The position numbers and the translations under genes are program-made. A model generated the notes under the pieces. It was not told the DNA's origin, searched no databases, and saw only the letters and a list, made by a program, of their open reading frames with translations. Shown here one piece after another: positions 1 to 52,043 of a DNA stretch of 64,000 nucleotides; the stretch's first letter is position 1; each line of letters starts with the position of its first letter. The DNA is from Candidatus Berkelbacteria bacterium (lineage in GTDB: Bacteria; Patescibacteriota; UBA1384; UBA12157): the NCBI GenBank assembly GCA_037127955.1, contig JBAXXI010000001.1:9217-73216 (forward strand). The letters are read 5' to 3'.

Positions 1-302
1 AACTTATTATTTCCGGTTTTTGCCTTAAGACCTGCCAAGCCGCGACCTATACATAAATCACAAGGAGCAAAATTGAGATCGCCTACCGGTGCTCTCACGC
101 TCATTAAAACGTCACCTTTATTTGCAAGTTTTGTAACCTTTTTTGTATATGTGTCGAAGCTAGGATATAAAATACCGAATGTTCTGTTTCCTTGTAAAAA
201 TGGAACACCTTCAAAATCAGAATAATAAATAGATTCTGGCGATTGCCCTTGCACTACAAGAGCAACATTTGAAAGCTTGGTTTTGAAACCCACTCTAGTC
301 AT
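1..302 (-). CDS. hsdS: Type I restriction-modification specificity subunit HsdS, N-terminal part; gene continues past the window start
   Basis: Manual translation of the minus strand from the ATG at 302..300 gives MTRVGFKTKLSNVALVVQGQSPESIYYSDFEGVPFLQGNRTFGIL...LMSVRAPVGDLNF. The QGQSP...PFLQG and SVRAPVG blocks are typical of HsdS target-recognition domains. The ATG overlaps the hsdM stop (ATGACTAG). It is not in the ORF track because it is under 60 aa and partial. Confidence 0.75.
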   Translation of the reverse strand, partial: MTRVGFKTKLSNVALVVQGQSPESIYYSDFEGVPFLQGNRTFGILYPSFDTYTKKVTKLANKGDVLMSVRAPVGDLNFAPCDLCIGRGLAGLKAKTGNNK

Positions 303-1905: not shown

Positions 1906-4900
1906 TAGTTTTCTCCTTTATATTCGCTAGTATACTCATCAGCCAGAATATCTCTTATCCGGCCTGCATTTGCGACATCAAGAACTGGGACTTGTGAATT
2001 CTCAAAACTATCGACTGTAGCCTGACCGATAAAATTAGAGAAATAACCATCATTATCAACCAAGTTTTTGTTTTTACCAAGTTTCTCGGCTATCAATTTT
2101 TTAATATCTGATAGCACATCGAACAAAGGCTGATTTTGGTTGACACGACCAGTCGGTTCAAGCAATTTGAAGGTGCGGGCATACTTACGGTCACCGTCAA
2201 ATTTCTCAAGTACGACTTGATTCTTGCGGTTTAGCTCTCGGATTCGATCGTAAATGTGTTTTAACTCGGTTGAAGCATATTCCATCTTTTCTTTATTGCC
2301 ACTAGCTTCACTTTCATTGTATTCAGAAAGCAGGCGAGTGAATTCCTCGTATAAGGTTACCCATTCTGGGTCTTTCTGATTATAGTTCCTATCCAGTTCC
2401 AAGCGAGTGTTCCGGGCAATCTCCTGTAAATCATTTGCCAACAGCTTTAACTCTTCTTCGCCAGTCTTAGTAAATTCAAAAATTACTCCCTCGATAGCAG
2501 TATTGAGTAGTTCCTTACTATTAATATCATTTGTAGCATCCTTTAAATTGAGGAGCTTCAAGCGATTACTAACTTCGGTAAGCAATTTGGCAATGAGTTT
2601 AAAATCAATTTTTTCAAGGATTTCTGTGTAACCTAGCAGCCTCGCAATATTATATATATCGCGTGCCGACTCTAGCGATTTCTTTAATTGATTTATTGTT
2701 TCTTTGTCGTTAATTGCACTTATTTGACGACTGAAGGTTTCAAGATTATCTGTTGAGAATTCGGAAAGCATACTTAAAACAATAGCGATCTCTTCATCAA
2801 TTTCAGACTTACTCATAAAAAGTGAACCAAAAATGTTGTTTGGATCATCGTTTTCATCCATACCTTCGCTATATTCACGATTCAATTCGTCAAAGTAGGC
2901 CTGGTTGGTGACTTCGAACTCTTTGCTGATATCAGCAAAATCCACTACATAGCCAATGCGAAAATCACGGTATGGTCGGTTGACGCGTGTGAGTGTCTGT
3001 AATAGATTATGGGCGCGTATTTTTCTACCGAGATAGAGTTTCTTAAGTCTTGGAGCATCAAAACCGGTTAGAAGCATTGAATATACAAACAATAAATCCA
3101 GTTTACCGTCTTTAAAGTCTTTGATTTCCGTTTCGCGTGTTTCTTTATCATCTTCATCATGGAGAATAAGGGCTGCTTTAAGACCATGTTCACTAGATTT
3201 TTCATTAAACTGTCGAAACATTTCGCGCGCTTGATCAGAGCTATCTGCTACAACCATACCCCCAATAGTTTTGTCCCCGAAACGAATGCGAGAATTTTTG
3301 AAATCCTTAATAATGTATTCGAGCATTGGATCGACAAAGTTACTATGAGATCGTATTTCTTTACGATCAATCGAACCGAGTTTAGTTTCTATTTCATGAA
3401 CAATCTCGTTTAACTTGGCCTTGTAACTCGTTTCAATTTCTTCGCGCAGTAGCTTTAAAGTATATCCATCTTTGATCGAATTATTATAATAATATTTATG
3501 AATGTAGTTACCAAAAATATTGCGAGTAGTTCTTACATCTTGCTTATCACTTAGCTCTTCGTCATCTTCTTTATGTTCACCGTAAACTATTAGCGGTGTA
3601 CCGGTAAGCGCAATTTTAACAGCTGATTTGTCGGAATTATATAGATTAGCGAGAAATGATCCTTTTGGATCATAGCTTCGATGGGCTTCATCGATAAAAA
3701 ATATACGTTGAACATTAATATCATAGCCAGAATTGTTAAATGCGGTAGTGTCATCTTTAAATTTTTGTATATTCACGACCGTAATACCGGCTGTAGTAGT
3801 GTTTGAGGCAAAATCACGCACTAGTGATTCTTTGTTGTCGATAGTCTGTACTTCAAGACCGCGCTTTCTAAATTCATTGCGAGCTTGTTTTGCTAAATCT
3901 AGGCGGTCAACTATAAAATAGAATTTTGAAATAACACCTTTTTTGGCGTAGTAATCGGTCAAATATTTAACACCATAGTAACTCAAAGCGGTTTTTCCAG
4001 ATCCTTGGGTGTGCCATATAATACCGCGATCATTGCCTGCGTCCAAATAGCGTGCAATAGCTTTTGTTGCAAAAAATTGCGGGTAGCGCATAATGTGCTT
4101 TTGAATAACCGTCTCGCCGGTTATTTCGTCAATCTCATCAACATACGCGATACCATATCGAAGAATCATGATGAGACGTTTCTTTTCGAATAAAGAGCTA
4201 ATAACTCGATTGGTTGGAGCATCAATATCTTTATTACTGATAAACTCTGGCGAGTGTTTTATAACTTCGAGATTAGTGTCTCTTAATACAAAATCTTCGA
4301 CTACTTCGTCGAGGTTGTGAATTTCATCAATAATCTCGCTCTTTCGTTCTTCGCGAAAATTGTTAAACTTTGCACGAGAGTTCTTGGCAGTAGTCGCGTA
4401 GAATGCACCCTGAAGCTGATCGGCAGTTGTATCGTCGTATTCCATATTGTTTGAAAATACGAGCAATTGGGTAATATTGATAAACTTACGAAACTTTTCG
4501 TTTGCAAACCGCATGTTGATACGGTCACGCTCAGCCTTGATACCTTCTGGGTTGTTTGGTTTCTTCACCTCTATGAAAGCCAGCGGCAAACCGTTAATAA
4601 AGATTGTGATATCTGGTCGGAACTCATCTTCTCCATTTTTATTGGCGAGTTCGGTCGTAACAAGATATGAGTTTTTTTCTGGATTTTCAAAATCTACTAG
4701 CTTATAATTTCCTCCGTCCGTGCCGATGAGTTTTTTGTAAAATTCTCGCCCCAAGTCATCATTGCCAAGAGATTGCTTTACATCAGAAAAAAATCCATCG
4801 AACTCACCATTTTGCGAGTCTGTGATGTTATTTATTTTATTAAACTGATCACGAAACTCATTCACAATAATACTTGTTTCGGGATCAATATTATAATTTT

Positions 4901-5000
4901 TGTCTTTCAGAGAGAAGTATTTGTAGCCTAAACGAGTAAAATGAAGTAACGATGGAATCTTTACTCTAGAATCCTCTGAAAATGAATTATCTTTTGCCAT
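1905..5000 (-). CDS. hsdR: Type I restriction enzyme R subunit HsdR (SF2 helicase-nuclease)
   Basis: 1031 aa. Walker A HTQGSGKTALS, DEAH box (FFIDEAHRS), an N-terminal nuclease region and a long C-terminal helical domain. It sits directly upstream of hsdM with a 1-nt overlap. Confidence 0.92.
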   Translation of the reverse strand: MAKDNSFSEDSRVKIPSLLHFTRLGYKYFSLKDKNYNIDPETSIIVNEFRDQFNKINNITDSQNGEFDGFFSDVKQSLGNDDLGREFYKKLIGTDGGNYKLVDFENPEKNSYLVTTELANKNGEDEFRPDITIFINGLPLAFIEVKKPNNPEGIKAERDRINMRFANEKFRKFINITQLLVFSNNMEYDDTTADQLQGAFYATTAKNSRAKFNNFREERKSEIIDEIHNLDEVVEDFVLRDTNLEVIKHSPEFISNKDIDAPTNRVISSLFEKKRLIMILRYGIAYVDEIDEITGETVIQKHIMRYPQFFATKAIARYLDAGNDRGIIWHTQGSGKTALSYYGVKYLTDYYAKKGVISKFYFIVDRLDLAKQARNEFRKRGLEVQTIDNKESLVRDFASNTTTAGITVVNIQKFKDDTTAFNNSGYDINVQRIFFIDEAHRSYDPKGSFLANLYNSDKSAVKIALTGTPLIVYGEHKEDDEELSDKQDVRTTRNIFGNYIHKYYYNNSIKDGYTLKLLREEIETSYKAKLNEIVHEIETKLGSIDRKEIRSHSNFVDPMLEYIIKDFKNSRIRFGDKTIGGMVVADSSDQAREMFRQFNEKSSEHGLKAALILHDEDDKETRETEIKDFKDGKLDLLFVYSMLLTGFDAPRLKKLYLGRKIRAHNLLQTLTRVNRPYRDFRIGYVVDFADISKEFEVTNQAYFDELNREYSEGMDENDDPNNIFGSLFMSKSEIDEEIAIVLSMLSEFSTDNLETFSRQISAINDKETINQLKKSLESARDIYNIARLLGYTEILEKIDFKLIAKLLTEVSNRLKLLNLKDATNDINSKELLNTAIEGVIFEFTKTGEEELKLLANDLQEIARNTRLELDRNYNQKDPEWVTLYEEFTRLLSEYNESEASGNKEKMEYASTELKHIYDRIRELNRKNQVVLEKFDGDRKYARTFKLLEPTGRVNQNQPLFDVLSDIKKLIAEKLGKNKNLVDNDGYFSNFIGQATVDSFENSQVPVLDVANAGRIRDILADEYTSEYKGEN

Positions 5001-5002
5001 TT

Positions 5003-7105
5003 TTATTCCTCACTTATTTCGTCTGATTCCCTATTTTTTTGAAAAGATTGTTCTATTAAAGTCATCAAATAATCAATTTGAGTTTCGGAATTAATTTTTG
5101 CTTCTACATTGCCATTACCCCAATGGCCAAGACCAGTTACATCATAAGACATCTTCTCCGGATCGATAATTTCGTTATAATCCATGTTCATACAAACCTT
5201 TAATTGGTTTTTCTGCGGTATAATGTCGACAAAATTCGTACTATTTTTGTAAGCAATATACTTGGCTTTTATAACCTCTTTTACAGAAGAATCAATGTTT
5301 AATATACGCTGTCTCAGTTTATTAAAAAGATCCAAAATATTTCCTTGCAAATATTCCTTATAAATATCTAGTGTATATATTTGTTCCGTTTCATCAGTAT
5401 CGACTTGCTTATATTTTTGAATAATTTCACTTGGCAAGGATGGGGCAATCCAAATTTTCACCGCTTTCACCGCGAGTTCTTTACCTCTTTTGGTAATCTC
5501 TTCTTCGTTCCATGACGGCAAATTTGCTAATGAATAATTCAATCTAATAGGGCTATCTTTGAATCCTCCCTCCATCGATTGTTTATCCGCAAAAGCTTTG
5601 TCGCTCAGTTCGGGATTATAGCCTGTCAATGTTAGGTTTCCGATCGTATGAAGATACTTCTCCTGAATCTCTTTCCAATTATCACCCAAATTGGCCTGCC
5701 ACTCGCTTGATAACTTCGGATTTTGTGGCATTATATGTTCAATTGTGAAGGTATCGACAGATACCTTTTCTTTTCGGCCAAAATTTTCTAATTTGTCTAA
5801 AAGATAATTGCGTCTAGAAAAGTTATATACATCTTTTATAAGAAGTTCGCTCATAAATTCTTCGTCATTTGGGAATCTCCGGTAGGAATCTTTCGCCAGC
5901 AATACCGCCTTAACGCTTTCTAAATAATTATCTCGATCAATAAACTTGGCCAAATTGCCGAAAGTTTTATTCATTGAATTTGTTGGGATACCACAAACTC
6001 CACGTCTAAACACATACGATTCGACTAAACGCAATATCTCGATTAGCTCTTCTTTTATAATTCTATTTTGATCATAATCTTCTAAGACCACCATTAGAAA
6101 TGGATACGCAACATCAACCTTTAGCGTATTAATGTCTTTAATCGTACCCCTTATTTCAGTATCGTTAACTCTCTCAAATGCAAGTTCAACAAAACGCTTG
6201 GAGTGATGATAGACATCGGCAACTATCTCGGAAATCGTTAATTTACAACTACTAGCGTAAACTTTAAAATTTTCATAAATTTGGTTTATATTAGGAATTC
6301 TTCCAGTTTTGATTGTTAAATAATCGCGCATAAATCTATCAAAAAGAACTGAATATTCAGCGTGACCAAAACTTTGTTCCATCGGGTACCATGACTTTTC
6401 ATACACTTCCACTTGATCATCTTGTTCAAGTCCCATTAAAACATAATTACGAATTAAATCAGCTTGGGATAAATCTAGTCCAGTTGAATTGAGACTTTCA
6501 AATATTAATTGTGGATTGTCTCTATCCCTATCAAGAGCTATATCCACGATAATTAGCTTGCTGATTCCCTTGTATAATTCTTCAACATCAATATTCAATT
6601 CTTTTATTTTGTTTATAAAAAAATTATAATTTTCATTTATTCTGCCAGATTGATTTTCTACAGCGCTTCTACCTTCAAGCAAATTAATAAAAGCTTCTCT
6701 GTCGCTTTTGGTTAACATTAATCTGTATTTTAGGTCGCCTTCTTCTTCACTATTAATCAAATAGTAGTTATTTATTTTTCTTTTTGACATATCCGAGGTT
6801 TCATCTTGATCTGCGATAGAATCACGGATTGCCATCATCAATAAAGAAAGGGTGGTTAGCCTTTGCTGGCCGTCAATCACTAGAAGTTTAGAAACAGCTG
6901 CGACCTGATATAGTCCATTTTCAATATAAACGATCGATCCAATAAAATGACCGCCGGTTTCTTCACTTTTTACCGCGCGCAAGATGTCGCTCCAGAGTTC
7001 ATCGCATTGTTTAGTCGTCCAGCTATAGGTTCTCTGGTAAATAGGTATAATAAATTGTTTCGTGCCTTGTAAAAATTTCGTTAGACTTGTTTCTACTGCT
7101 TTCAT
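5003..7105 (-). CDS. DUF262/DUF1524 fusion protein (GmrSD / BrxU / SspE-like type IV modification-dependent nuclease family)
   Basis: 700 aa. N-terminal DUF262 motifs IPIYQRTYSW and DGQQRLTT. C-terminal DUF1524 His-Me-finger motif FTIEHIMPQNP ... NLTLTGYNPELSDKAF. The stop lies 2 nt from the hsdR ATG. Confidence 0.8.
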   Translation of the reverse strand: MKAVETSLTKFLQGTKQFIIPIYQRTYSWTTKQCDELWSDILRAVKSEETGGHFIGSIVYIENGLYQVAAVSKLLVIDGQQRLTTLSLLMMAIRDSIADQDETSDMSKRKINNYYLINSEEEGDLKYRLMLTKSDREAFINLLEGRSAVENQSGRINENYNFFINKIKELNIDVEELYKGISKLIIVDIALDRDRDNPQLIFESLNSTGLDLSQADLIRNYVLMGLEQDDQVEVYEKSWYPMEQSFGHAEYSVLFDRFMRDYLTIKTGRIPNINQIYENFKVYASSCKLTISEIVADVYHHSKRFVELAFERVNDTEIRGTIKDINTLKVDVAYPFLMVVLEDYDQNRIIKEELIEILRLVESYVFRRGVCGIPTNSMNKTFGNLAKFIDRDNYLESVKAVLLAKDSYRRFPNDEEFMSELLIKDVYNFSRRNYLLDKLENFGRKEKVSVDTFTIEHIMPQNPKLSSEWQANLGDNWKEIQEKYLHTIGNLTLTGYNPELSDKAFADKQSMEGGFKDSPIRLNYSLANLPSWNEEEITKRGKELAVKAVKIWIAPSLPSEIIQKYKQVDTDETEQIYTLDIYKEYLQGNILDLFNKLRQRILNIDSSVKEVIKAKYIAYKNSTNFVDIIPQKNQLKVCMNMDYNEIIDPEKMSYDVTGLGHWGNGNVEAKINSETQIDYLMTLIEQSFQKNRESDEISEE

Positions 7106-7108
7106 ATT

Positions 7109-7408
7109 TTATTCCTCAATTTTCGCCCGATTAATAATATTTTCAATGACCCAATATTTATAGCCAGCAATCTCTAAGTATTTATATTCTTTGTCATAAA
7201 ATGGCTTAATGTAACCATTTGAATCTATTTCTCTTACGAACATTTTTATTTCGTCTGATTTGTCTGGATAATCATCGATAACAACATATTCATGCGGAAT
7301 TTCCGGCATGGTTTTGGCAAATGTCCAAGCTAAATGAGAAATTAGTTTTGTAATTTCTTTTTGCAAATTCATTAGCTTTATTTTACGCTTCTGGAGGGAT
7401 TTATTCAA
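7109..7408 (-). CDS. Hypothetical 99-aa protein, first gene of the defense operon
   Basis: ORF track entry with an unrecognised conserved-looking core (WTFAKTMPEIPHEYVVIDDYPDKSDEI...GYKYWVIENI). It ends 3 nt before the DUF262/DUF1524 start codon, so it is likely co-transcribed. An alternative start at MNLQKE is 12 codons downstream. Confidence 0.5.
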   Translation of the reverse strand: MNKSLQKRKIKLMNLQKEITKLISHLAWTFAKTMPEIPHEYVVIDDYPDKSDEIKMFVREIDSNGYIKPFYDKEYKYLEIAGYKYWVIENIINRAKIEE

Positions 7409-7493
7409 GTTTACAAAAACACCTGGTCAAGAATTCCAAGAATTATCAATATTTTTTTGGGAAAGAGTTAATTATTTAGGAATCAATACAAGA

Positions 7494-7712
7494 TTAATCT
7501 CGTCTTTCTTCATTTAGATTGAAACTAACATTTTTATTGTTTATTTGAATTCGGTTTTTGGTTTGCAACTCATTAAAAGCCTGCTGGAAGGTCATTCGTT
7601 TTTCTTTAACCATTCTTTCCAATGTAAAATAAAGAGCCAGCGGCACAGTGTAGCCATCTGCTTTCATTTTTTTATACCATTCGGCAACAGTTTTAAATTC
7701 ATTAATATCCAT
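7494..7712 (-). CDS. Hypothetical small protein (72 aa)
   Basis: ORF track only. Sits in the defense-island gap between the 99-aa gene and the PLD-like gene. No recognisable motif. Confidence 0.3.
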   Translation of the reverse strand: MDINEFKTVAEWYKKMKADGYTVPLALYFTLERMVKEKRMTFQQAFNELQTKNRIQINNKNVSFNLNEERRD

Positions 7713-7796
7713 ATCTTGATTATATCAGAAAGTGGTAAATTATTAATTCAAAAAGTCCATATTTCACAGCAAGCATAGTATGACAAAATCACACTT

Positions 7797-8522
7797 TTAT
7801 TTGTAAAGAAAACTTATCAAGCCGAAAACAAATTTTGCTCCTTTCAACGATACTATTAATACTTTAACGATGGCAAATAACCACCACGCGAGAAACGGAA
7901 CAACTACTCCCAAAAAGAACAATTTGATCTTAGCCAGTTTATTCTCTTCAAGATTCTTGGCCATATTGCGATATAGCCGCTCATACTGAAACTTGTAGGC
8001 TTCAGCCAGCTTTTTGCTTAGCCCCAGATAAGACATAGTTTCTTGCACCAATATCTCATCCGAGATTCGCCTCATCATTTCACGACTTTGTCTTTGCGAA
8101 AGAATATTTAAGCTCCCTTCCCAAAGTATTTCGCGATCAATAATGGCTAATTTTTCATGAACAAATCCTGGCAGATGAGTAATATGGGCGCCGGACTCTT
8201 CATAATCCTTAAGTGCACAAGAAATTTCCGCTTTCATGAAATAATCATGTTCTTCAAGCGGTCTGGTAAAAATAAAAACCGGTATGTTTCTTTTCCGAAG
8301 TTCAATAAGCGTCCGTCTGAAAAATTCCGATCGAAACTTTGAAACAAACGGGCTGTAAATAACCACTTCTTTTTTGGCGGCCAACATATCTTTAACGAAT
8401 GCCTGATAAAAACTCTTTTCATTAAAAAGATTGCCTTTTTGCATTTCTTTCAATTTCTTGGCATCAACTTCATTTTGGATATTTGTAAGATGCTGCCTAT
8501 ATGCCGGTGATTGTCGTAACAT
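7797..8522 (-). CDS. PLD-superfamily single-HKD protein (Nuc/BfiI-like nuclease fold) with a C-terminal transmembrane anchor
   Basis: 241 aa. Canonical HKD motif HEKLAIIDREILWEGSLN (HxKxxxxDx6GSxN). Only one HKD copy, implying a dimer like Nuc. The C-terminal hydrophobic helix is LFFLGVVVPFLAWWLFAIVKVLIVSL. Confidence 0.7.
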   Translation of the reverse strand: MLRQSPAYRQHLTNIQNEVDAKKLKEMQKGNLFNEKSFYQAFVKDMLAAKKEVVIYSPFVSKFRSEFFRRTLIELRKRNIPVFIFTRPLEEHDYFMKAEISCALKDYEESGAHITHLPGFVHEKLAIIDREILWEGSLNILSQRQSREMMRRISDEILVQETMSYLGLSKKLAEAYKFQYERLYRNMAKNLEENKLAKIKLFFLGVVVPFLAWWLFAIVKVLIVSLKGAKFVFGLISFLYK

Positions 8523-10763: not shown

Positions 10764-11228
10764 TTATTGCGAAACAGAAATAATATTGTTTTCCGCATCA
10801 CAAGCTTTAACGGTTACGATCCCATTTGAATCAATTGAAATTGAATAGCCAGTTAAAGCAGACGTCCCATTTGGATCAATAGGAATAGATTTTAAATATT
10901 TTGACAAGGAAGAAGTTAAATCTATAGCAGATGTTGCAGTAACATTACAACCACCTTTAGAGATCATGGCACCACTTTCAGCGGTACCAATCTGTCTTTC
11001 GGCCATACCAACCAAAAGACCAGTTGGATAAGAACCCTTATTATCTATAAAATATGAATGAACAGCCACTAAAATATTTTGAATATCACTAGCCCGTCGA
11101 GAATCATTGGAATCTTTTAATATTTTTGTCGGCTTAAAAACAATAAAAATTACTACAACCAAAACAGCAACCACGGCGACCGTTAAAATTAGCTCGATAA
11201 GCGTAAAAGCTTTTTTATTCTTGATCAT
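10764..11228 (-). CDS. Type IV pilin / pseudopilin-like protein with prepilin N-terminus
   Basis: Internal start MIKNKKAFTLIELILTVAVVAVL gives the class III signal motif (KA|FTLIEL with Glu+5) and a hydrophobic helix. The track ORF is extended 14 codons upstream. Confidence 0.75.
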   Translation of the reverse strand: MIKNKKAFTLIELILTVAVVAVLVVVIFIVFKPTKILKDSNDSRRASDIQNILVAVHSYFIDNKGSYPTGLLVGMAERQIGTAESGAMISKGGCNVTATSAIDLTSSLSKYLKSIPIDPNGTSALTGYSISIDSNGIVTVKACDAENNIISVSQ

Positions 11229-11395
11229 CAACCCTCCTCTAACTCTTATAATACCTTGACTCAAAATCAATATGAATTTAATATCTAATATAATAATACG
11301 CCAAAATTAACAAAAAATATATACAATCCAATCTGTTTTAGTATTTTAAGCTCTTTAGAGTTTAAAATTAAAAGAAAACCTGTTAAAATATAAAT

Positions 11396-24626: not shown

Positions 24627-24705
<79 letters not shown>

Positions 24706-26277: not shown

Positions 26278-26607
26278 TTAAAAAGCCTGACTCATGGCAA
26301 ATAGTCTTAAAAATATAATAAATAATATTTGAACTAAAGCACTACCGCCAAGCAAGATAAAACAAATCAACGTTTGTTTTCGATAAATAATATTTGATAA
26401 AAAAATGTTCAATATTAATACTGCCAAAGCGTAACTAATCGGTATAATTCCAATTAATTCCCGATAAAATTTAATATAAAGAAACCAAATGGCGCTGTTG
26501 GTCAAGAGCGATACGCCCACCAATAACCAAACCATTTTTGAACTCCAAAATGGATTTACAAAAAAATACTTGATTTGATTAGCGATAAATTTAAAAACTT
26601 TTTTCAT
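26278..26607 (-). CDS. Small hydrophobic membrane protein (109 aa)
   Basis: ORF track. Three predicted TM helices. Immediately downstream of the GT2 gene on the same strand. Confidence 0.35.
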   Translation of the reverse strand: MKKVFKFIANQIKYFFVNPFWSSKMVWLLVGVSLLTNSAIWFLYIKFYRELIGIIPISYALAVLILNIFLSNIIYRKQTLICFILLGGSALVQILFIIFLRLFAMSQAF

Positions 26608-26618
26608 ATTTTTTTATT

Positions 26619-26692
26619 TGGAGCCAATGGGCAGAATCGGACTGCCGTCGACGATTTACGAAACCGCTGCTTTACCACTAAGCTACATTGGC
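26619..26692 (-). tRNA. tRNA-Thr (anticodon CGT), CCA encoded
   Basis: Acceptor GCCAATG/CATTGGC, D-arm GCTT-AGTGGTA-AAGC, anticodon arm GCGGT-TTCGTAA-ATCGT, T-arm GGCAG-TCCGATT-CTGCC, U73, CCA. Confidence 0.8.
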
Positions 26693-26717: not shown

Positions 26718-26892
26718 TGGAGCAGATAGCGGGAATCGAACCCGCATCCCATCCTAAGAATCTGATTTCCCAGAGCGGGATACCAGAATCGAACTGGCAT
26801 CTTATCCTTGGGAAGGACACGTTCTACCACTGAACCAATCCCGCTCTGGGAAATCATGGGAAGGATGTGTTCTGCCACTAAACCATATCTGC
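26718..26892 (-). tRNA. Interrupted tRNA-Gly(CCC)-like gene with a ~100-nt insertion after the anticodon loop. Putative exons ~26856..26892 and ~26718..26755.
   Basis: 5' part GCAGATA-TG-GTTT-AGTGGCA-GAAC-A-CATCC-TTCCCA(T) and 3' part (A)-GGATG-GGAT-GCGGG-TTCGATT-CCCGC-TATCTGC-T-CCA join into a perfect cloverleaf. The acceptor stem (7 bp), anticodon stem (CATCC/GGATG), T-arm and encoded CCA are all intact. Confidence 0.5.
26774..26844 (-). tRNA. tRNA-Gly (anticodon CCC), nested inside the insertion of the outer tRNA-like gene; no encoded CCA
   Basis: GCGGGAT-TG-GTTC-AGTGGTA-GAAC-G-TGTCC-TTCCCAA-GGATA-AGAT-GCCAG-TTCGATT-CTGGT-ATCCCGC-T. The acceptor stem continues into a perfect 12-bp extension (GATTTCCCAGA+A / T+TCTGGGAAATC). 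Confidence 0.7.
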
Positions 26893-26944
26893 AAAATTTC
26901 TTATATTAACACTATTATAGCAAATTTTAACCTAAAATAAAAGG

Positions 26945-28522
26945 TTAAAAATCCAAATCGTCCTGTTTTTGCTTAATAAAACGAAACCATGAATTACTAA
27001 TTTTAATAATACTTTTAAGCGGTGCTTCGATCAAAAAATCCAAAGTAATAGTAAATGGATTTTGCTTCGTAATCGCGTTAGACAAAAATTTACCAATCAA
27101 AATAAATGGTAAAAACGCGAATTCTACCATTGAAACCAAAAAACTATCCCGAGTTTTCTGCATCGCTAGTTCCAATGCAATATTTCGAATTCTAAATGAA
27201 AAAAACGAAACCGCGGAAATAAAAATAAAAAACAAAGATATACTAACAACATTGAACCCTAACTTTGTCAGCAATATTATCACCCCGATAATAATTGCAA
27301 TATTGAAAATAACATAAAGGGTGTCAAAAAACATTTCGATATGAGTTTTTTTACGCTCACCAATAAAAAATGGTTTTGATTCAATTTTTCGGTAAGTTAA
27401 AATATTATTAATAGAATTTAAAACTGTTTGCCGATTTGCCTGAGACGGGGTCTTGACCGACAATCCGGCAAACAACATGATGATCGGTGGGGCAAATATA
27501 TTAATTGCTAATGGTAAATAATCGATCGATTTCCTTAAAATCTGATCAAAAGGCATTTCAATAATAAAAGCTAATGAAACCTTAGTTAACAGAATAAAAA
27601 TTAAAGCTCGAAACGTACCTCGCCAAACCTTTGTTTTGGTTTTATCGATCAATTTGTCATAAACTCCCATCAACCAATCAACCAACTTTTCTCTATTACC
27701 ACTAATTAAGGTTAAATTACTCTGATAATTAGGCAATTCCTTAATTAGAACAAAAGGCGCAATGTATTTTTTCGAGTAAGCAAAATAATCCTTACTATAT
27801 GGATTTTTAAAAACCTGGTCTGCCTGACCAACAATATTATCAAAATGATGACCAATTTCCTTTGCATGATCAAGACTAAAATCTACAAAATAAGGAAAAA
27901 TTTTCCTAATCAACCAATATTGCGCATAAGAGTAATCTGGTTTAAAAATCAAAGTTAAAATAGAAAGTTTTAATTGAATTTCACTGATCTTTTCTTGAGA
28001 AACACTTGCAAACTTTAAATTATCTTTTAGGCAATTATAGGCAAAATCGACCATAATTTCTTGACGCTTACGACAAAAAAATATTTCATCAATCTCGCAA
28101 GCCATCCAGCCAATAACGATCTTTTGAGCGTCATATTTAGCCATATTTCTTGACCGAAGCGAGCTAAGTAATACCAAATAACGGTTAATGACTTTTTTGA
28201 CTTTAGCGACTTCGTCATCAGTTAAAGTATCAATATTAATATAATCAGCCCAAGCCAATTCGTTTAATAAATCATTAAATAACATTTCGGCATCAAGCGA
28301 GACAGACAAAGCATATTTGCGACGAATAATTCGACTAACGGCATTTTTAAAAATCAAATGGTCTTCCTGATATTCTACAGCTGTCCGAAATTTTTCATAC
28401 AAAAAAGCCGAGTGCATCATTTTGTCATTGCCCTTATTCAAATGCTTTTCGCCGGTCGCAAGTATAATAAATTTCTCCAGAAACTTTTCAACTTCCAGAG
28501 AGTACTGACTGTCTTTTTCCAT
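26945..28522 (-). CDS. Hypothetical protein with a C-terminal polytopic membrane region (525 aa)
   Basis: ORF track. Large soluble N-terminal domain and about four C-terminal TM helices. No confident family. Confidence 0.4.
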   Translation of the reverse strand: MEKDSQYSLEVEKFLEKFIILATGEKHLNKGNDKMMHSAFLYEKFRTAVEYQEDHLIFKNAVSRIIRRKYALSVSLDAEMLFNDLLNELAWADYINIDTLTDDEVAKVKKVINRYLVLLSSLRSRNMAKYDAQKIVIGWMACEIDEIFFCRKRQEIMVDFAYNCLKDNLKFASVSQEKISEIQLKLSILTLIFKPDYSYAQYWLIRKIFPYFVDFSLDHAKEIGHHFDNIVGQADQVFKNPYSKDYFAYSKKYIAPFVLIKELPNYQSNLTLISGNREKLVDWLMGVYDKLIDKTKTKVWRGTFRALIFILLTKVSLAFIIEMPFDQILRKSIDYLPLAINIFAPPIIMLFAGLSVKTPSQANRQTVLNSINNILTYRKIESKPFFIGERKKTHIEMFFDTLYVIFNIAIIIGVIILLTKLGFNVVSISLFFIFISAVSFFSFRIRNIALELAMQKTRDSFLVSMVEFAFLPFILIGKFLSNAITKQNPFTITLDFLIEAPLKSIIKISNSWFRFIKQKQDDLDF

Positions 28523-28563: not shown

Positions 28564-29067
28564 TTACATTTTTCGACTATCATAAGCCCAGTGCAACAAA
28601 GCCTGTCGTTGTTTTTTTCGACACAACCAATCACCTTTATGACAATTTCTGACCACTTGCGCAACATGCCTTTTCATTGCCTTCCAGCGCTTAATTTGCC
28701 TATCATCTTCCTCTTGCAAACGTCGTCCCATAAAATATCGACAATACCACTGGAACCAACCCCTGGGATCATCTTTGTAAATCCAACCTTTTTCACACCA
28801 AACCGAAAGCGGTTGACTCGCATTAACTCCAAAGAAATTTAACTTTGCCTCATGAAAATTAGAATTCAATTTTGCCTTAGCAAACCAATCGTCAGGAAAT
28901 TCTTGCAAACAATCGGTCATATATTTACCGCCAAAAACACCTAATTCAAGCATATCTTTAGGGGTCAAATCTGGCTTAAATTCCGAATGAAAATTCTTAC
29001 CCATTGGCTCAACTAACTCATAACTATAATTTTTTTGCATCTTGTCGTTAACATGAACTTTTTTCAC
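28564..29067 (-). CDS. Hypothetical conserved protein (167 aa), Trp/Cys-rich
   Basis: ORF track, with a GWFQWYCRYFMGRR block. No confident assignment. Confidence 0.4.
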   Translation of the reverse strand: MKKVHVNDKMQKNYSYELVEPMGKNFHSEFKPDLTPKDMLELGVFGGKYMTDCLQEFPDDWFAKAKLNSNFHEAKLNFFGVNASQPLSVWCEKGWIYKDDPRGWFQWYCRYFMGRRLQEEDDRQIKRWKAMKRHVAQVVRNCHKGDWLCRKKQRQALLHWAYDSRKM

Positions 29068-41553: not shown

Positions 41554-43272
41554 TTACCGATCATGAGTCCATTTAACCAGATCAACTAAACTCATTGTAT
41601 TAATAATGTCTGATTTTTCACACCAACCACGACGCGCCACCGATACGCCATAACGCATTAAAGAAAAATGATTAGTGTGGTGCGAATCAGTATTAATTGC
41701 GAATTTAACACCCATTTTACAAGCAGATTGGACCAAAACATCAGCTAAATCTAAACGATTTGGAAATGAGGAAATCTCTAAAGCTGTTCCGGTCTGAGCA
41801 GCTTTAGCAAAAATTTGTGGCCAATCTAAATTACAAGGCTCTCGAACTCCAATTATTCTTCCTGACGGATGACCGATAATATCAACATGAGGATTTTCAA
41901 TCGCCTTAATCATTCTGGCTGTCACAATTTCTTTTTCTTGATTAAAACTTGTATGAATAGAAGCAATTACTAGATCCATTTTTTCGAGCATTTCATTTTT
42001 TATGTCTAAATCACCGTTCGCCTTAATATTAACTTCAACCGCGGAAAGAACTTTAATTTTATGGTTTTTCTGAACCTTTTCAATTTCTTTTTGACGTTCC
42101 TCCAGAGCTTTCTCGTCCAAGCCATTAGCAATCCCTAGGCCGACCGTATGATCAGAAATCGCCACATACTCATAACCCATTTTTTCGGCTTGTGTTACCA
42201 TTTCCTCAATCGTCATGAGCCCATCAGACCAGGTCGAATGAGTATGTAAATCACCTTTAATATCTTTTTGTTCAACTAATTTTGGTAAACTGTGTGACAA
42301 CGCCGCCTCAATCTCACCCCTGTCCTCACGAAGTTCTGGGGTAATAAAATCCATGTTTAAAAATTCATATACACCTTTTTCTGTTTTAAAAGTATGAACT
42401 TTATCCCTAAATTTAATCCCATGTTCTGAAACAGATTTGTTTTGAGTTTGAGCATAAGTTCTGAGTGCCACGTTATGTTCTTTACTTCCAGTAAAATGTT
42501 GCAACAAGGAACCGTATTCAGTCTCTGGCACAATTTCCAAATCGACCTGCACTCCCTGCCAATGAATAATAGTCGACTTGGTTTTACCCTGAGTCACTAC
42601 ATGATCGACAAATGGCAGTTTCACAAATTGATCGATAACCATTTTGGGCTTTTTGCTGGTCGCCACAATATCGATATCGCCAATGGTTTCTTTCATTCTC
42701 CTTAAACTACCAACAAAATCAACCTGAACGGTTTCAGGAAATTTTTTAATTGCTTCAACAATTTCTTCAGCAATTGGCAAGGCTTCAGTGATCAAAAGCT
42801 TACCTGATAATTTTCCTAAAATTTCAATACCACGTAAAATATTTTGAGCGGTTTTTTCTTGAAAAACTTCTTTGGCCTTACCGGCTTCAATTTTCTTTTT
42901 CAAATCACTAATATTTTTAGCCTTTAATTCTCTGGCGATTTTAACAGCCATTTTTGGCCCCACACCAGGAATTTGCAAAAATTCTATTTCCGAAACCGGC
43001 ACTTCTTTCTTAAGTTCTAAAAGATACTCAAGTTTACCAGTTTTTAAAAGCTCTTCAATCGCGCTCGCAATCGATTCACCTACACCATCGATTTCATTTA
43101 ACGCTTTGATACCACCTTCAAGATAAATATTTCTGAGTTCATGAGCCAAGTTTTCAATCACTTGAGCTGATTTTCGATAAGCTAAAATCCGAAATCGATT
43201 TTTTTCTGGATCCAAAATTTCCAGAATCGAAGCGATCTGGTTTAAGTTATGCGCAATTTCTTTATTTGTCAT
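41554..43272 (-). CDS. polX: Family X DNA polymerase with C-terminal PHP phosphoesterase domain
   Basis: Pol-beta-like N-terminus with Hh[15 protein letters not shown]. Nucleotidyltransferase GSLRR...DIDIV. PHP motifs [11 protein letters not shown] and VAISDHT. Confidence 0.85.
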
Positions 43273-50486: not shown

Positions 50487-52043
50487 TTATATTGATTTTA
50501 ATCTATCAATAACAAATTTTTGATCTAAACTTGCCAGTAACCAGCCAGCCTGCGGGCCGGAATCTTTACCTAAAAATGATAAATAAATAGCGGAAAAAGC
50601 CTGTTTTGGCTCAATTTTCATATCATTTTTAATCTCGTGGATCTTGGCGTGCAAATCCTCACCCGTCCATTTTTCTTGAGCCGATATAGCCTCGGCGATT
50701 TTTGCTAAATAAGTTTTTTGCTCGTTGCTTAAATTCTTGGCAACCTCTGGAACAACATCGGAAATGGTAAATTTGACTGATTCTGGCGCGTACCCATCGA
50801 GCCACAATTTAGCCACTTTGATCCGATTTTCGATTTCTTCTTTTTCCACTTCAGTTAGCTCGCTACCCTTTTCTTCTTTAGCATAAGCTAAAATATCCAT
50901 TCTTGGCATTTGTAAAAAATTAGCCACTTTTGAAAATCTTAAGTAATAGCTTGGCAGTTTATCAAACAATCCTTTTTCTGTATAGAAAAACGCTCTAGCC
51001 ATGTCGGTATCAACCTTTTCCTGAAAATCCTTAGCGCAACGATCATATTCATCGTAAAGTAACGGAATAGTATCGCCTTCCGGGTTAAACTCAATTGCTC
51101 TTTTATATTTAGTTCTGGTAAATAAAAATTTCAAAATATTGGCAGGCAATAAATCGGCCATCTGTTTGGCCGTCACACCTAAGCCCTTGCTTGAACTCAT
51201 TTTGGCACCACCAATTAAAATGTGTTCATATGGCGCATCGTGAGGTGGGGTCTTGCCAAAAACTTCTCGATAAATTCGACTGGCGACATCACGAGTCCCG
51301 CCGGCGGCGGCATGATCTTTACCGGCACCTTCAACATCAATACCCATAAAGCTCCATTTACTCGGCCATTCAACCTTATAAGGCAGTTTTGCATTGCCGT
51401 CAAACGGACTAATTTTACCCTTATAACCACAACCTTTAGCCCAATCAACCATATTTTCCATACACTCAAATTCAACTTCGGTGCCGTCCCAACCATGGAC
51501 ACGAGTCGTACCAATTTTACCGCAATTTGGACAAACCACATTTAAAGCATACCAATCTTCACCTTTGTCGCTTCCCGAAACCTCTTTGTAAATCGCCCTA
51601 ATCTTATCGGCATGATCGAGCGTTAGCTTGATTGCATCATTGAACTTGCCTTCTTTATATAAAATTGAAGTATAATAATACTCTGGCTTTATCTTTAAAT
51701 AATCAATAATAGCCTTTAGTTCATTGGCATATTGAGCTGCAAAACTTTCCGACTGACCGTCAGGAGCTGGTACATTTGATAACGGCAATCCCATATATTT
51801 TTCAAAACTTTGATCAACATAAATCGGCAAGCCATCCATTGGATCAAAATCGTCAAAACCAAAAATAAACTTGGCTTTCTTACCATTCTCCACAAGACCT
51901 TCACGAATTAAATCGTGAATAATCAAACCACGCAAAGACCCGACATGGGCCTGACCAGACGGAGTAGTTGAGTCATTAATCAAATAGGAATCTTTATTTT
52001 CTTTGGCTATAATACTGTGTGTAATTTCATCTGTCCAAAACAT
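50487..52043 (-). CDS. lysK: Class I lysyl-tRNA synthetase (archaeal-type)
   Basis: PSGQAHVGSLRG (HIGH-like of class I LysRS) and KMSSSKG (KMSKS), about 518 aa. The architecture differs from class II LysS. Confidence 0.8.
   Translation of the reverse strand: MFWTDEITHSIIAKENKDSYLINDSTTPSGQAHVGSLRGLIIHDLIREGLVENGKKAKFIFGFDDFDPMDGLPIYVDQSFEKYMGLPLSNVPAPDGQSESFAAQYANELKAIIDYLKIKPEYYYTSILYKEGKFNDAIKLTLDHADKIRAIYKEVSGSDKGEDWYALNVVCPNCGKIGTTRVHGWDGTEVEFECMENMVDWAKGCGYKGKISPFDGNAKLPYKVEWPSKWSFMGIDVEGAGKDHAAAGGTRDVASRIYREVFGKTPPHDAPYEHILIGGAKMSSSKGLGVTAKQMADLLPANILKFLFTRTKYKRAIEFNPEGDTIPLLYDEYDRCAKDFQEKVDTDMARAFFYTEKGLFDKLPSYYLRFSKVANFLQMPRMDILAYAKEEKGSELTEVEKEEIENRIKVAKLWLDGYAPESVKFTISDVVPEVAKNLSNEQKTYLAKIAEAISAQEKWTGEDLHAKIHEIKNDMKIEPKQAFSAIYLSFLGKDSGPQAGWLLASLDQKFVIDRLKSI

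What the first reader, a model, noticed from the sequence alone, without database searches (positions are those of the whole stretch)
26718..26892. tRNA-within-a-tRNA: a tRNA-Gly(CCC)-like gene split after its anticodon loop by an insertion carrying a second complete tRNA-Gly(CCC) inside a 19-bp perfect helix
Seen in sequence (minus strand). The outer 5' part is GCAGATA TG GTTT AGTGGCA GAAC A CATCC TTCCCA(T). The outer 3' part is (A) GGATG GGAT GCGGG TTCGATT CCCGC TATCTGC T CCA. Together they form a flawless cloverleaf with anticodon CCC and encoded CCA. Between them lies a complete 71-nt tRNA (GCGGGAT...TTCCCAA...TTCGATT...ATCCCGC-T, anticodon CCC, no CCA). Its acceptor stem continues without interruption into 12 more base pairs (5' A-GATTTCCCAGA-A / 3' T-TCTGGGAAATC-T). 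The insertion site is right after the anticodon loop, the canonical position for BHB and group I tRNA introns, but 100 nt is too small for a group I intron. Established knowledge: RNase P and RNase Z would release the inner tRNA and cut the outer precursor into two halves. These could stay paired through the anticodon and acceptor stems, as in the trans-assembled split tRNAs of Nanoarchaeum. Alternative inference: an ancestral tRNA-Gly gene was inactivated when a paralogous tRNA gene inserted. The two copies differ at many positions (acceptor stems GCAGATA versus GCGGGAT; anticodon stems CATCC versus TGTCC), so the duplication is not recent. This arrangement (nested or intron-borne tRNA, or split tRNA) in a bacterium is unusual, if I have folded it correctly by hand.
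Basis: partly seen in the sequence, partly recalled or inferred. Interest (0 to 1): 0.8.

Follow-up and report, generated by a model that had tools for sequence, protein, structure and literature searches.

The report
tRNA gene nested inside cognate tRNA
In this Berkelbacteria (candidate-phyla-radiation) genome a glycine tRNA gene has been split exactly in its anticodon loop by a 101-bp hairpin-flanked cassette carrying a second glycine tRNA with the same anticodon, and relatives show this is one snapshot of a recurrent, apparently undescribed way in which tRNA genes invade and replace each other.

Summary
On the minus strand, 26892-26718 holds a tRNA-Gly(CCC) cloverleaf with encoded CCA. It is interrupted between nt 37 and 38 by 101 nt: a 12-bp arm, a complete but different tRNA-Gly(CCC) without CCA, the complementary arm and a 7-nt tail.

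The host is Candidatus Berkelbacteria (Patescibacteria). Orthologous loci decide the interpretation. One relative (L133) has the outer tRNA intact and uninterrupted, which is an exact empty site. Others are nested with a damaged outer (L122, L135), keep only a 5' or 3' remnant (L137, L139, L141, L143), keep only the inner type (L136, L162), or lack the gene (L159). These states are patchy on the host tree. tRNA-Thr(CGT) and tRNA-Pro(UGG) show the same nesting, always cognate-in-cognate and sometimes in several layers. Unrelated Patescibacteria contigs have it with unrelated arms.

Best reading (about 0.68): a helix-flanked tRNA cassette inserted into the resident gene. The inner tRNA is the working product and the outer halves are a still-intact remnant that will decay. 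It is not a group I or bulge-helix-bulge intron. Splicing of the outer is not excluded (about 0.1). How the cassette inserts is unknown. I found no description of this in the searchable literature.

The parts
26914..26922 (-). Extended -10 promoter element TGcTATAAT, 21 nt upstream of the first base of the outer tRNA; presumed promoter of the nested Gly unit and probably of tRNA-Thr
   Evidence: Read directly. The consensus scan does not list it because there is no -35 match. The same motif precedes the first tRNA of the orthologous cluster in L122, L133, L135 and L140-L142.
26857..26892 (-). Outer tRNA-Gly(CCC) 5' half: acceptor 5' strand, D arm, anticodon stem 5' strand, loop nt 32-37 (TTCCCA)
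   Evidence: 97% identical to positions 1-36 of the intact native tRNA-Gly(CCC) of L133.
26756..26856 (-). Inserted 101-nt cassette (arm + inner tRNA + arm + 7-nt tail), sitting exactly between nt 37 and 38 of the outer tRNA with no target duplication
   Evidence: Boundaries defined by comparison with the empty site in L133. Homologous cassettes at the same site in L122 and L135.
26845..26856 (-). 5' arm TGATTTCCCAGA
   Evidence: Pairs perfectly with 26774-26763. Four arm pairs change on both sides among W, L122 and L135.
26774..26844 (-). Inner tRNA-Gly(CCC), 71 nt with discriminator U, no encoded CCA; the presumed functional product
   Evidence: ARAGORN; Rfam RF00005 65.4 bits. Its stem differences from the L122 and L135 copies are compensatory. 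The same tRNA type is the only tRNA-Gly(CCC) at this locus in L136 and L162.
26763..26774 (-). 3' arm TCTGGGAAATCA (first base is the inner discriminator)
26756..26762 (-). Unpaired 7-nt tail GATTCTT of the cassette (GATGGC in L122, GATTCGT in L135)
   Evidence: The arm and tail form YGATT...AATCR-GAT... recurs as short cargo-less hairpins in dead tRNA halves of relatives.
26718..26755 (-). Outer tRNA-Gly(CCC) 3' half: nt 38, anticodon stem 3' strand, variable loop, T arm, acceptor 3' strand, discriminator U, encoded CCA (26720-26718)
   Evidence: 97% identical to positions 37-72 of the L133 native tRNA.
26619..26692 (-). tRNA-Thr(CGT), 25 nt downstream, probably co-transcribed; clean here but itself nested in relatives
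   Evidence: Nested Thr-in-Thr in L133, L135, L137 and L159.

Best explanation
The locus is the resident tRNA-Gly(CCC) gene of a Berkelbacteria genome, split between nucleotides 37 and 38 by a 101-bp cassette. The cassette is a second tRNA-Gly(CCC) gene of a different allelic lineage. It lacks CCA, its acceptor stem is prolonged by 12-bp inverted-repeat arms, and it ends in a 7-nt tail. Shown: the insertion, its exact boundaries, the empty site, the recurrence at three isoacceptors and in several lineages, and the decay series of the outer halves. Inferred: one promoter (TGcTATAAT) transcribes outer 5' half, cassette and outer 3' half, probably together with tRNA-Thr. The inner tRNA is cut out (RNase P at its 5' end, a 3' endo- or exonuclease, possibly after a double-strand-specific cut in the 19-bp helix) and receives CCA from the CCA-adding enzyme. 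It is the working tRNA-Gly(CCC). The two outer halves are not rejoined and are by-products. Because the cassette brings a replacement, killing the resident gene costs nothing. The outer halves then erode by point mutation, small hairpin insertions, and deletions between the similar inner and outer halves, until only the inner tRNA remains. In this window the outer is still perfect, so the nested allele is young here. Spread is horizontal. The most economical route is homologous recombination using the conserved tRNA halves as portable homology arms, which would also explain why nesting is always cognate-in-cognate. A dedicated site-specific insertion mechanism is equally open. The origin of the arms is unknown; a snap-back copy of a leader or trailer primed from the acceptor stem would fit arms that continue the acceptor stem and the missing CCA.
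For: The outer is an interrupted native gene: its halves match L133's uninterrupted tRNA-Gly(CCC) at positions 1-36 and 37-72, 97% each, and that tRNA scores 69.1 bits in Rfam. Across 14 Berkelbacteria loci (12 relatives fetched through the neighbouring p497 gene without regard to tRNA state, plus this window and L122) the states are: a single un-nested gene in L133, L136, L140, L142, L161 and L162 (native type in L133, L140, L142; inner type in L136, L162; a third type in L161); nested in W, L122 and L135; one-sided remnants in L137, L139, L141 and L143; gene absent in L159. Outer decay: L122 has A58U and no CCA; L135 has a mutated anticodon loop (TTCCAA) and an interrupted T loop; the outer tRNA-Pro of L122 and L133 has no anticodon left. 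States are patchy on the host tree: L141 and L142 are 93% identical in p497 yet differ, and empty-site L133 lies within the clade containing the nested W, L122 and L135. L141's tRNA-Thr is 96% identical to a clade-A type, which shows horizontal allele replacement. The inner is under tRNA-type constraint: its stem differences among W, L122 and L135 are compensatory. Generality: Thr(CGT)-in-Thr(CGT) in L133, L135, L137 and L159, up to three layers; Pro-in-Pro in L122 and L133; Gly-in-Gly with unrelated arms in other Patescibacteria (L071, L125, L127, L129 and others). Acceptor-stem extension of 6 bp or more is seen in 8 of 97 tRNAs of the Patescibacteria loci, 7 of them cassette tRNAs, and in 0 of 38 control tRNAs. 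CCA-less stand-alone tRNA genes in relatives (L133, L140, L142, L162) imply that CCA addition exists in the clade.
Against: Between W and L122 the outer halves differ at only 4 of 71 positions, including one compensatory pair. The arms differ at 8 of 24 and the flanking spacers cannot be aligned. If both descend from one old insertion, the outer has been under purifying selection while nested, which a dead remnant should not be. I explain this by recent or independent acquisition into a slowly evolving native gene, but that is an inference. Arms and the small hairpins in dead halves keep pairing through double changes, which hints at a function I cannot name; DNA-level quasi-palindrome correction is an alternative. 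A 19-bp helix that buries the inner 5' end should hinder RNase P. In this window all six other tRNAs and the outer encode CCA while the inner does not. No mobility gene was found in the 64 kb. No expression data exist.
Confidence: 0.68

Rival explanations
1. It is a genuine intron. The 101-nt tRNA-containing insert is removed at the RNA level (for example the inner tRNA released by RNase P and a 3' nuclease, tails trimmed, ends joined by an RNA ligase, or an unknown endonuclease acting at the two junctions), so that one transcript yields two different tRNA-Gly(CCC) species. This would be a new bacterial tRNA-splicing pathway.
For: The outer is flawless and carries CCA in this window. The site is the canonical 37/38. 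The outer halves are the slowest-evolving part of the locus between W and L122 (3% and 9%, against 11% for the inner tRNA and 25% for tRNA-Thr), with a compensatory change in the outer anticodon stem. The empty site in L133 could be a precise intron loss. Patescibacteria are known to keep introns in tRNA genes (PMC13011429).
Against: There is no bulge-helix-bulge: the two junctions face each other across a 6 x 8-nt internal loop. No ribozyme or intron family matches. RNase P and 3' cleavage sites lie 12 and 18 nt from the exon ends, so they cannot define the junctions. Junction positions differ between cassettes (37/38 for Gly here, 35/36 for Thr in L137). Most nested outers in relatives are broken (L135, L122/L133 Pro, L129, L123) or reduced to one half. 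No ligase or endonuclease candidate lies in the window.
Confidence: 0.1
2. The outer halves and arms are kept because the unspliced structure is useful. A tRNA-shaped scaffold whose anticodon arm is a long helix capped by the real tRNA could guide end-processing, protect the transcript, or time release of the inner tRNA through a double-strand-specific nuclease, much as processing stems do for rRNA.
For: The helices are maintained through double changes in arms and hairpins across genomes. The outer acceptor, D and T arms persist in several loci even where the anticodon arm is gone (L122 and L133 Pro). The same architecture appears in unrelated lineages with unrelated arm sequences.
Against: Many close relatives do without it: six have a single clean gene and one has no gene. 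One-sided remnants cannot form the scaffold. No precedent exists for such a tRNA scaffold.
Confidence: 0.12
3. After the inner tRNA is cut out, the two outer halves stay base-paired and act as an unligated split tRNA in translation.
Against: The anticodon would sit in an open internal loop with 12- and 18-nt tails. From established knowledge, tRNAs nicked in the anticodon loop are inactive, and the split tRNAs of Nanoarchaeum are ligated before use. The decay of outers in relatives argues against it as well.
Confidence: 0.03
4. Chance resemblance or assembly chimera.
For: None beyond the prior that hand-folded structures are often wrong.
Against: E = 2e-14 matches of both halves to a real tRNA. 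The same arrangement appears in independent assemblies. z = -5.2 for the fold.
Confidence: 0.01

Closest known systems
Protein-spliced tRNA introns of Archaea and Eukarya (bulge-helix-bulge, position 37/38; splicing endonuclease plus RtcB-type ligase)
   Same: Insert sits exactly at 37/38. A helix formed by the two ends of the insert abuts the anticodon stem. Patchy distribution among relatives.
   Different: No bulge-helix-bulge. The host is a bacterium. The insert carries a complete cognate tRNA. Host exons decay in relatives, so splicing is unlikely.
Group I introns in bacterial tRNA anticodon loops (cyanobacterial tRNA-Leu(UAA) and tRNA-fMet; Patescibacteria tRNA-Asn/Asp at 35/36, PMC13011429)
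   Same: Bacterial, in the anticodon loop, sporadic among relatives, same phylum.
   Different: 101 nt, of which 71 are a tRNA. No group I core and no Rfam intron hit.
Split and permuted tRNA genes (Nanoarchaeum equitans, Caldivirga, Cyanidioschyzon merolae)
   Same: 5' and 3' halves broken at or near 37/38, with complementary 12-14-nt sequences next to the break.
   Different: Here the halves are collinear in one transcription unit and separated by another tRNA. There is no bulge-helix-bulge and no evidence of joining.
Integrative elements (phages, ICEs) that insert into tRNA genes and carry a replacement tRNA segment
   Same: The resident tRNA gene is disrupted at the anticodon loop or T arm while function is preserved by incoming sequence. 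Displaced 3' halves ending in CCA lie downstream, as in L137, L139 and L141.
   Different: The insert is only 101 bp, has no integrase, brings a whole tRNA instead of the 3' part, and leaves a displaced 5' half as well.
Small palindromic non-autonomous elements (MITEs, REP/BIME, IS200/IS605-derived hairpin elements)
   Same: Tiny, hairpin-forming, no coding capacity. Related cargo-less hairpins (CGATT...AATCG-GATAGC) occur at fixed positions in dead tRNA halves.
   Different: No target-site duplication. Carries a tRNA as cargo. Targets tRNA genes. No cognate transposase identified.
Intervening sequences of bacterial rRNA (excised by RNase III without religation) and rRNA processing stems
   Same: A helix-flanked insert in a structural RNA gene. 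A leader-trailer helix of about 19 bp encloses a mature RNA.
   Different: In rRNA the fragments still work together. A tRNA broken in the anticodon loop should not.

Membership tests
tRNA (Rfam RF00005): inner element | Cloverleaf scoring above the 29-bit gathering threshold, with a 7-nt anticodon loop | tested here: met
   65.4 bits, model positions 1-71; ARAGORN tRNA-Gly(ccc).
tRNA: outer element | A continuous gene that folds as a cloverleaf | tested here: not met
   Standard ARAGORN and Rfam runs on the genomic sequence call only the inner tRNA. Only after deleting 26856-26756 in silico is a 74-nt tRNA-Gly(ccc) called.
tRNA: outer element | Orthology to a functional tRNA gene | tested here: met
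   Halves are 97% identical to positions 1-36 and 37-72 of the uninterrupted L133 tRNA-Gly(CCC), which scores 69.1 bits.
Group I intron | Conserved P3-P9 catalytic core, usually more than 200 nt; match to the Rfam group I model | tested here: not met
   No intron family at gathering or at E <= 5. Only 30 nt of the insert are not tRNA.
Bulge-helix-bulge (archaeal/eukaryal) tRNA intron | Two 3-nt bulges on opposite strands separated by a 4-bp helix, each holding a splice site | tested here: not met
   The junctions lie in a 6 x 8-nt internal loop directly opposite each other, and the arm helix is uninterrupted.
Bulge-helix-bulge (archaeal/eukaryal) tRNA intron | Insertion at canonical position 37/38 | tested here: met
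   Comparison with the empty site of L133.
Bulge-helix-bulge (archaeal/eukaryal) tRNA intron | Splicing endonuclease and RtcB-type ligase encoded in the genome | not testable with these tools
   Only 64 kb are available; none of its ORFs matches such families.
Split tRNA (Nanoarchaeum type) | Halves encoded as separate, separately transcribed genes and joined in trans | tested here: not met
   The halves are collinear, 101 nt apart, behind a single promoter-like element.
tRNA-targeting integrative element | Integrase gene and an element body between direct repeats of the tRNA segment | tested here: not met
   The insert is 101 bp and there is no recombinase in the window. A large serine recombinase lies near the cluster in one relative only (L139).
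MITE-like or other DNA transposon derivative | Terminal inverted repeats | tested here: met
   12-bp perfect inverted repeat, though followed by a 7-nt tail on one side.
MITE-like or other DNA transposon derivative | Target-site duplication | tested here: not met
   ...TTCCCA|insert|AGGATG... against TTCCCAAGGAT in L133 shows no duplication. A 4-nt CAAG repeat flanks the insert in other families (L071, L125, L127, L129).
MITE-like or other DNA transposon derivative | Multiple dispersed copies in the genome | tested here: inconclusive
   One copy in this 64 kb. Eight motif-plus-hairpin matches (six in tRNA contexts, five of them in relatives) in 144 kb, against 0.5 expected in shuffles.
RNase III processing stem / rRNA-type intervening sequence | Double-stranded stem of about two helical turns enclosing the mature RNA, cleaved by RNase III | not testable with these tools
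   A 19-bp perfect helix exists. Cleavage cannot be tested in silico.

The most novel reading that the evidence does not exclude
The cassette is an active member of a previously unknown kind of genetic element. It would be a hairpin-ended mini-element that targets tRNA genes and survives because it carries a working copy of the very tRNA it destroys (a self-rescuing, cognate-homing tRNA cassette). Cargo-less hairpin relatives would litter dead tRNA halves, and the arms would arise by snap-back synthesis primed from the acceptor stem. A still bolder variant, which I put at about 0.1, is that the insert is also removed at the RNA level, which would be a new bacterial tRNA-splicing pathway giving two tRNAs from one gene.
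Probability: 0.35. Interest if true: 0.9.

Novelty: new variant of a known kind. Interest (0 to 1): 0.8.

Why it matters
Disrupted tRNA genes (introns, split and permuted genes) have been treated as an archaeal and eukaryotic speciality, and bacterial tRNA genes are thought to carry only self-splicing introns. Here a bacterial lineage with a very small genome shows tRNA genes nested inside their own cognates, at three isoacceptors and sometimes in several layers, with every stage from fresh insertion to complete replacement visible among relatives. That offers a concrete, testable route for tRNA gene turnover and horizontal replacement. It also gives a possible new class of tiny tRNA-targeting element or intron, and a natural experiment on how RNase P and 3' processing cope with a tRNA buried in a 19-bp helix. 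There is a practical consequence too. Standard tRNA finders report only the inner gene, so such loci and their remnants are invisible in current annotations of Patescibacteria.

Tried and rejected
- **Group I or other ribozyme intron:** no Rfam family besides tRNA at gathering or at E <= 5; rejected.
- **Bulge-helix-bulge intron:** inspected the junctions and the MFE fold; no staggered 3-nt bulges; rejected.
- **First collection scan:** the genome contigs pattern CCTTCCCAN{5,30}GCGGRN{18,30}CCTTCCCA was too loose.
- **Partial tRNA matches in Rfam:** permissive Rfam mode does not report them, so I mapped remnants with short-word BLAST instead.
- **Phage vector:** the inner-type T arm occurs only in ordinary phage tRNA-Gly(UCC) genes. 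Hits to the hairpin motif in viral contigs were chance, and there were no nested Gly or Thr patterns there.
- **Mobility or splicing genes near the locus:** none among the 59 ORFs of the window. The three ORFs next to the locus have no family.
- **Arm as an antisense guide:** in W the 3' arm contains TGGGAA, complementary to the anticodon loop, but this is not conserved in L135 or in other cassettes; rejected.
- **Base 73 pairing with position -1 as a special signature:** most control tRNAs also show one extra pair, so only extensions of 6 bp or more are informative.
- **Deletion-scan with ARAGORN:** too permissive to define outer tRNAs in the degenerate families.
Full report
**1. The observation**

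The minus strand of 26892-26718 reads as the first-stage reader described. It consists of:
- a 36-nt tRNA 5' half ending in the anticodon-loop bases TTCCCA;
- a 12-nt arm;
- a complete 71-nt tRNA-Gly(CCC);
- the complementary 12-nt arm, whose first base is the inner discriminator;
- a 7-nt tail;
- a 38-nt tRNA 3' half that begins with A38 and ends in CCA.

ARAGORN and Rfam call only the inner tRNA (65.4 bits). When I delete the 101 nt in silico, ARAGORN calls the joined outer halves as a 74-nt tRNA-Gly(CCC) with every stem paired. The whole 175 nt folds at -76.1 kcal/mol (z = -5.2, 0 of 200 shuffles as stable), with the 19-bp arm-plus-acceptor helix in the minimum-energy structure. An extended -10 element, TGcTATAAT, lies at 26922-26914, 21 nt upstream of the outer tRNA. 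The consensus scan does not list it because it has no -35. tRNA-Thr(CGT) follows 25 nt downstream.

**2. The organism**

The neighbouring genes are bacterial housekeeping genes (BipA, pyruvate kinase, LytR, a SurA-like PPIase, ATCase) plus DUF5656, at about 36% G+C. The glycosyltransferase 0.5 kb downstream (p497) is 100% identical to a protein that NCBI names from a Candidatus Berkelbacteria MAG. So the host is a member of the Patescibacteria (candidate phyla radiation).

**3. What the outer tRNA is**

I used p497 as an anchor to fetch orthologous loci without regard to their tRNA content.
- In L133 (p497 86% identical), the first tRNA behind the same promoter motif is an uninterrupted tRNA-Gly(CCC): GCAGATATGG...TTCCCAAGGATAGG...TATCTGCT. 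It scores 69.1 bits in Rfam.
- The window's outer halves match its positions 1-36 and 37-72 at 97% each.
- The only differences are the two sides of one base pair in the anticodon stem.

The outer is therefore the resident tRNA-Gly(CCC) gene of this clade. L133 is an exact empty site, and the 101 nt sit between nt 37 and 38 with no target duplication.

**4. The inner tRNA and the cassette**

The inner tRNA belongs to a different allelic lineage (GCGGGAT...GCCAGTTCGATTCTGGTATCCCGC). It differs from native-type tRNAs at 14-30 of 71 positions, largely through compensatory changes. It is the only tRNA-Gly(CCC) at this locus in L136 and L162.

Homologous cassettes occupy the same site in L122 and L135. 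An alignment of the three with the named structure gives 98% paired cells, against 35-47% when the partners are slid. Nine pairs change on both sides: four in the arms, four in the inner tRNA and one in the outer anticodon stem.

**5. The series of states**

Across 14 Berkelbacteria loci the tRNA-Gly(CCC) site shows the following states.

| State | Loci |
|---|---|
| Single un-nested gene | L133, L136, L140, L142, L161, L162 |
| Nested, outer intact | W |
| Nested, outer with A58U and no CCA | L122 |
| Nested, outer with mutated anticodon loop and interrupted T loop | L135 |
| Complete tRNA plus only a 3' or 5' remnant of another | L137, L139, L141, L143 |
| Gene absent | L159 |

On a p497 tree the states are patchy. 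L141 and L142 are 93% identical in p497 yet differ in state, and the empty-site L133 lies within the clade containing the nested W, L122 and L135. L141's tRNA-Thr is 96% identical to a type found in the other clade. So alleles at this locus are exchanged horizontally.

**6. Generality**

The neighbouring tRNA-Thr(CGT) is nested Thr-in-Thr in several relatives.
- In L133 it has both halves.
- In L137 the two allele types have swapped roles, and there is a further outermost 3' half, making three layers.
- L135 and L159 are also affected.

tRNA-Pro(UGG) in L122 and L133 is a CCA-less tRNA flanked by 13-15-bp arms. It lies inside a second Pro gene that has its own promoter, hairpin insertions in the D loop and T stem, a CCA end, and no anticodon left.

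A pattern scan of metagenomes and genomes found Gly(CCC)-in-Gly(CCC) loci with unrelated arm sequences in other Patescibacteria contigs: L071; the family L125/L127/L129; probably L123 and L132.

In an unbiased measure over all 135 tRNAs in the sequences I hold, the acceptor stem continues as a perfect helix of 6-15 bp into the flanks for 8 of 97 tRNAs in the Patescibacteria loci. Seven of those are cassette tRNAs. No control tRNA out of 38 exceeds 2 bp. The Thr cassettes fit too if one or two mismatches are allowed. Every nested pair I could type is cognate.

**7. How it most likely works**

Shown:
- an insertion-disrupted resident gene;
- a structurally constrained inner tRNA;
- outers that decay.

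Inferred:
- One promoter transcribes the whole unit.
- The inner tRNA is released by RNase P and 3' processing, probably after the long helix is opened or cut.
- The inner tRNA receives CCA enzymatically. Stand-alone CCA-less tRNA genes in L133, L140, L142 and L162 imply the activity exists in the clade.
- The outer halves are not rejoined.

Because the cassette supplies the function it destroys, and because tRNA-Gly(CCC) is dispensable in at least one relative (L159), the insertion is tolerated. The outer then erodes, and recombination between the similar inner and outer halves can delete one side. That accounts for the one-sided remnants and for inner-type genes that have acquired a CCA end.

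Always-cognate nesting follows in either of two ways. The nested allele may spread by homologous recombination through the conserved tRNA halves. Alternatively, a tRNA-targeting insertion may be viable only where its cargo rescues the target.

**8. What does not fit comfortably**

- **Outer conservation.** Between W and L122 the outer halves are the most conserved part of the locus: 1 of 36 and 3 of 35 differences. The arms differ at 8 of 24, the inner tRNA at 11%, other shared tRNAs at 6-32%, and the spacers cannot be aligned. If the two cassettes descend from a single insertion in situ, the outer has been under purifying selection while nested. I favour recent or separate acquisition into a slowly evolving native gene, given the demonstrated horizontal turnover. 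This is the main reason I keep about 0.1 on genuine splicing and about 0.1 on a scaffold function.
- **Hairpins that stay paired.** The arms, and small hairpins inserted at fixed places in dead halves, stay paired through double changes between genomes. The fixed places are the D loop, the T stem between positions 52 and 53, and the T loop after TTCG. This could mean an RNA- or DNA-level function, repeated insertion of a mobile hairpin family, or quasi-palindrome correction during replication.
- **A shared hairpin form.** The T-stem hairpins (CGATT...AATCG-GATAGC) share their ends with the arms and tail of the Gly cassette (YGATT...AATCR-GAT...). The L159 copy has the same stem as the arms in this window. 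This suggests that cassette and hairpins belong to one family, with or without tRNA cargo.

**9. Comparison with known systems**

- It is not a group I intron: no core and no Rfam hit.
- It is not a bulge-helix-bulge intron: the junctions face each other across a 6 x 8-nt internal loop.
- It is not a split tRNA: the halves are collinear.
- It is not a classical integrative element: 101 bp, with no integrase in the window.
- It resembles small palindromic elements in size and shape, but it has no target duplication and it carries a tRNA.

Full-text searches found no description of nested cognate tRNA genes in bacteria. [quoted passage not shown]

**10. Verdict**

The locus is an unusually fresh example of a recurrent, apparently undescribed process of tRNA-in-tRNA nesting and replacement in Patescibacteria. 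The insertion mechanism is unknown.

Limits of this work:
- There are no expression data.
- Only 64 kb of the genome are available.
- The one genome-collection scan was lost to an over-loose pattern.
- The metagenome examples were found with a pattern that required a Gly(CCC) inner tRNA, so prevalence across isoacceptors is not measured.

Noticed in passing
L133:3460-3650; L137:3360-3620; L135:1290-1560; L159:2300-2640: tRNA-Thr(CGT) is itself nested inside a second tRNA-Thr(CGT) in relatives. In L137 the inner and outer allele types are swapped relative to L133, and a further outermost 3' half ending in CCA makes three layers. In L137 the insert sits between nt 35 and 36.
   Followed up: partly
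L122:5490-5715; L133:5590-5835: tRNA-Pro(UGG) without CCA, flanked by 13-15-bp arms that continue its acceptor stem. It lies inside a second Pro gene that has its own promoter, a hairpin in the D loop, a hairpin in the T stem and a CCA end, but no anticodon. The three hairpins differ between L122 and L133 by double (pair-preserving) changes. In this window tRNA-Pro (24630-24705) is the clean invading type with CCA.
   Followed up: partly
L122:5667-5690; L133:5787-5810; L135:1412-1437; L137:3577-3601; L159 around 2490-2515: Short hairpins of the form CGATT-(variable tip)-AATCG-GATAGC are inserted after the 4th base of the T-stem 5' strand in dead 3' halves of tRNA-Pro and tRNA-Thr. Their ends match the arms and tail of the Gly cassette, and the L159 stem (CGATTTC/GAAATCG) equals the arms in this window. 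With the cassettes there are 8 such matches in 144 kb, against 0.5 in shuffles.
   Followed up: partly
L122:5500-5530; L133:5610-5650; L159:2330-2375; L135 (three sites); L137 and L141 Gly remnants: Two more recurrent small inserts occur in dead tRNA halves. One is a D-loop hairpin of the form xCAGAy-stem-loop-stem-rTCAT just before AGAGC (tandemly duplicated in L159). The other is a T-loop insert after TTCG that begins CCTTTAG and ends AGC; it is present in the opposite orientation in L137 and L141.
   Followed up: no
L159:2240-2660: This relative (p497 82% identical) has no tRNA-Gly(CCC) at the locus at all, so the isoacceptor seems dispensable, presumably because tRNA-Gly(UCC) covers its codon.
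   Followed up: no
L139:1051-2406: A large serine recombinase (Resolvase + Recombinase + Zn-ribbon domains) lies just upstream of the tRNA-Asp/Gly/Thr cluster in one relative, next to about 1.6 kb without called genes. It is the only mobility-type gene seen near any of these loci.
   Followed up: no
L142:3330-3520: The promoter-bearing segment upstream of tRNA-Gly(CCC) (...TTCTCCTTAAATTTGCTATA...) is repeated about 2.5 times in tandem (unit of about 62 nt).
   Followed up: no
L144:2540-2640; L145:4840-4940: Two large IMG/VR phage contigs (114 and 120 kb) carry tRNA-Gly(UCC) genes whose acceptor stem and T arm are identical to those of the invading tRNA-Gly(CCC) type. They sit in ordinary tRNA arrays and are not nested.
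   Followed up: no
window 295-8522: Defence cluster: type I restriction-modification methylase and R subunit, a GmrSD-type endonuclease with DUF5655, and a PLD-like nuclease-family protein.
   Followed up: no
window 10764-11270: A small protein with a prepilin-type N-terminal methylation motif and weak similarity to competence pilins (ComGC/D/E). This is consistent with DNA uptake, which is relevant to horizontal replacement of tRNA alleles.
   Followed up: no
window 50487-52043 and 41554-43272: A class I (archaeal-type) lysyl-tRNA synthetase and a family X DNA polymerase with a PHP domain.
   Followed up: no
window 26278-26607, 26945-28522 and 28564-29067: The three ORFs flanking the nested tRNA (109, 525 and 167 aa) have no Pfam or NCBIfam match. 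The first two are conserved in position across Berkelbacteria whatever the tRNA state (48% and 58% identity to L122).
   Followed up: partly
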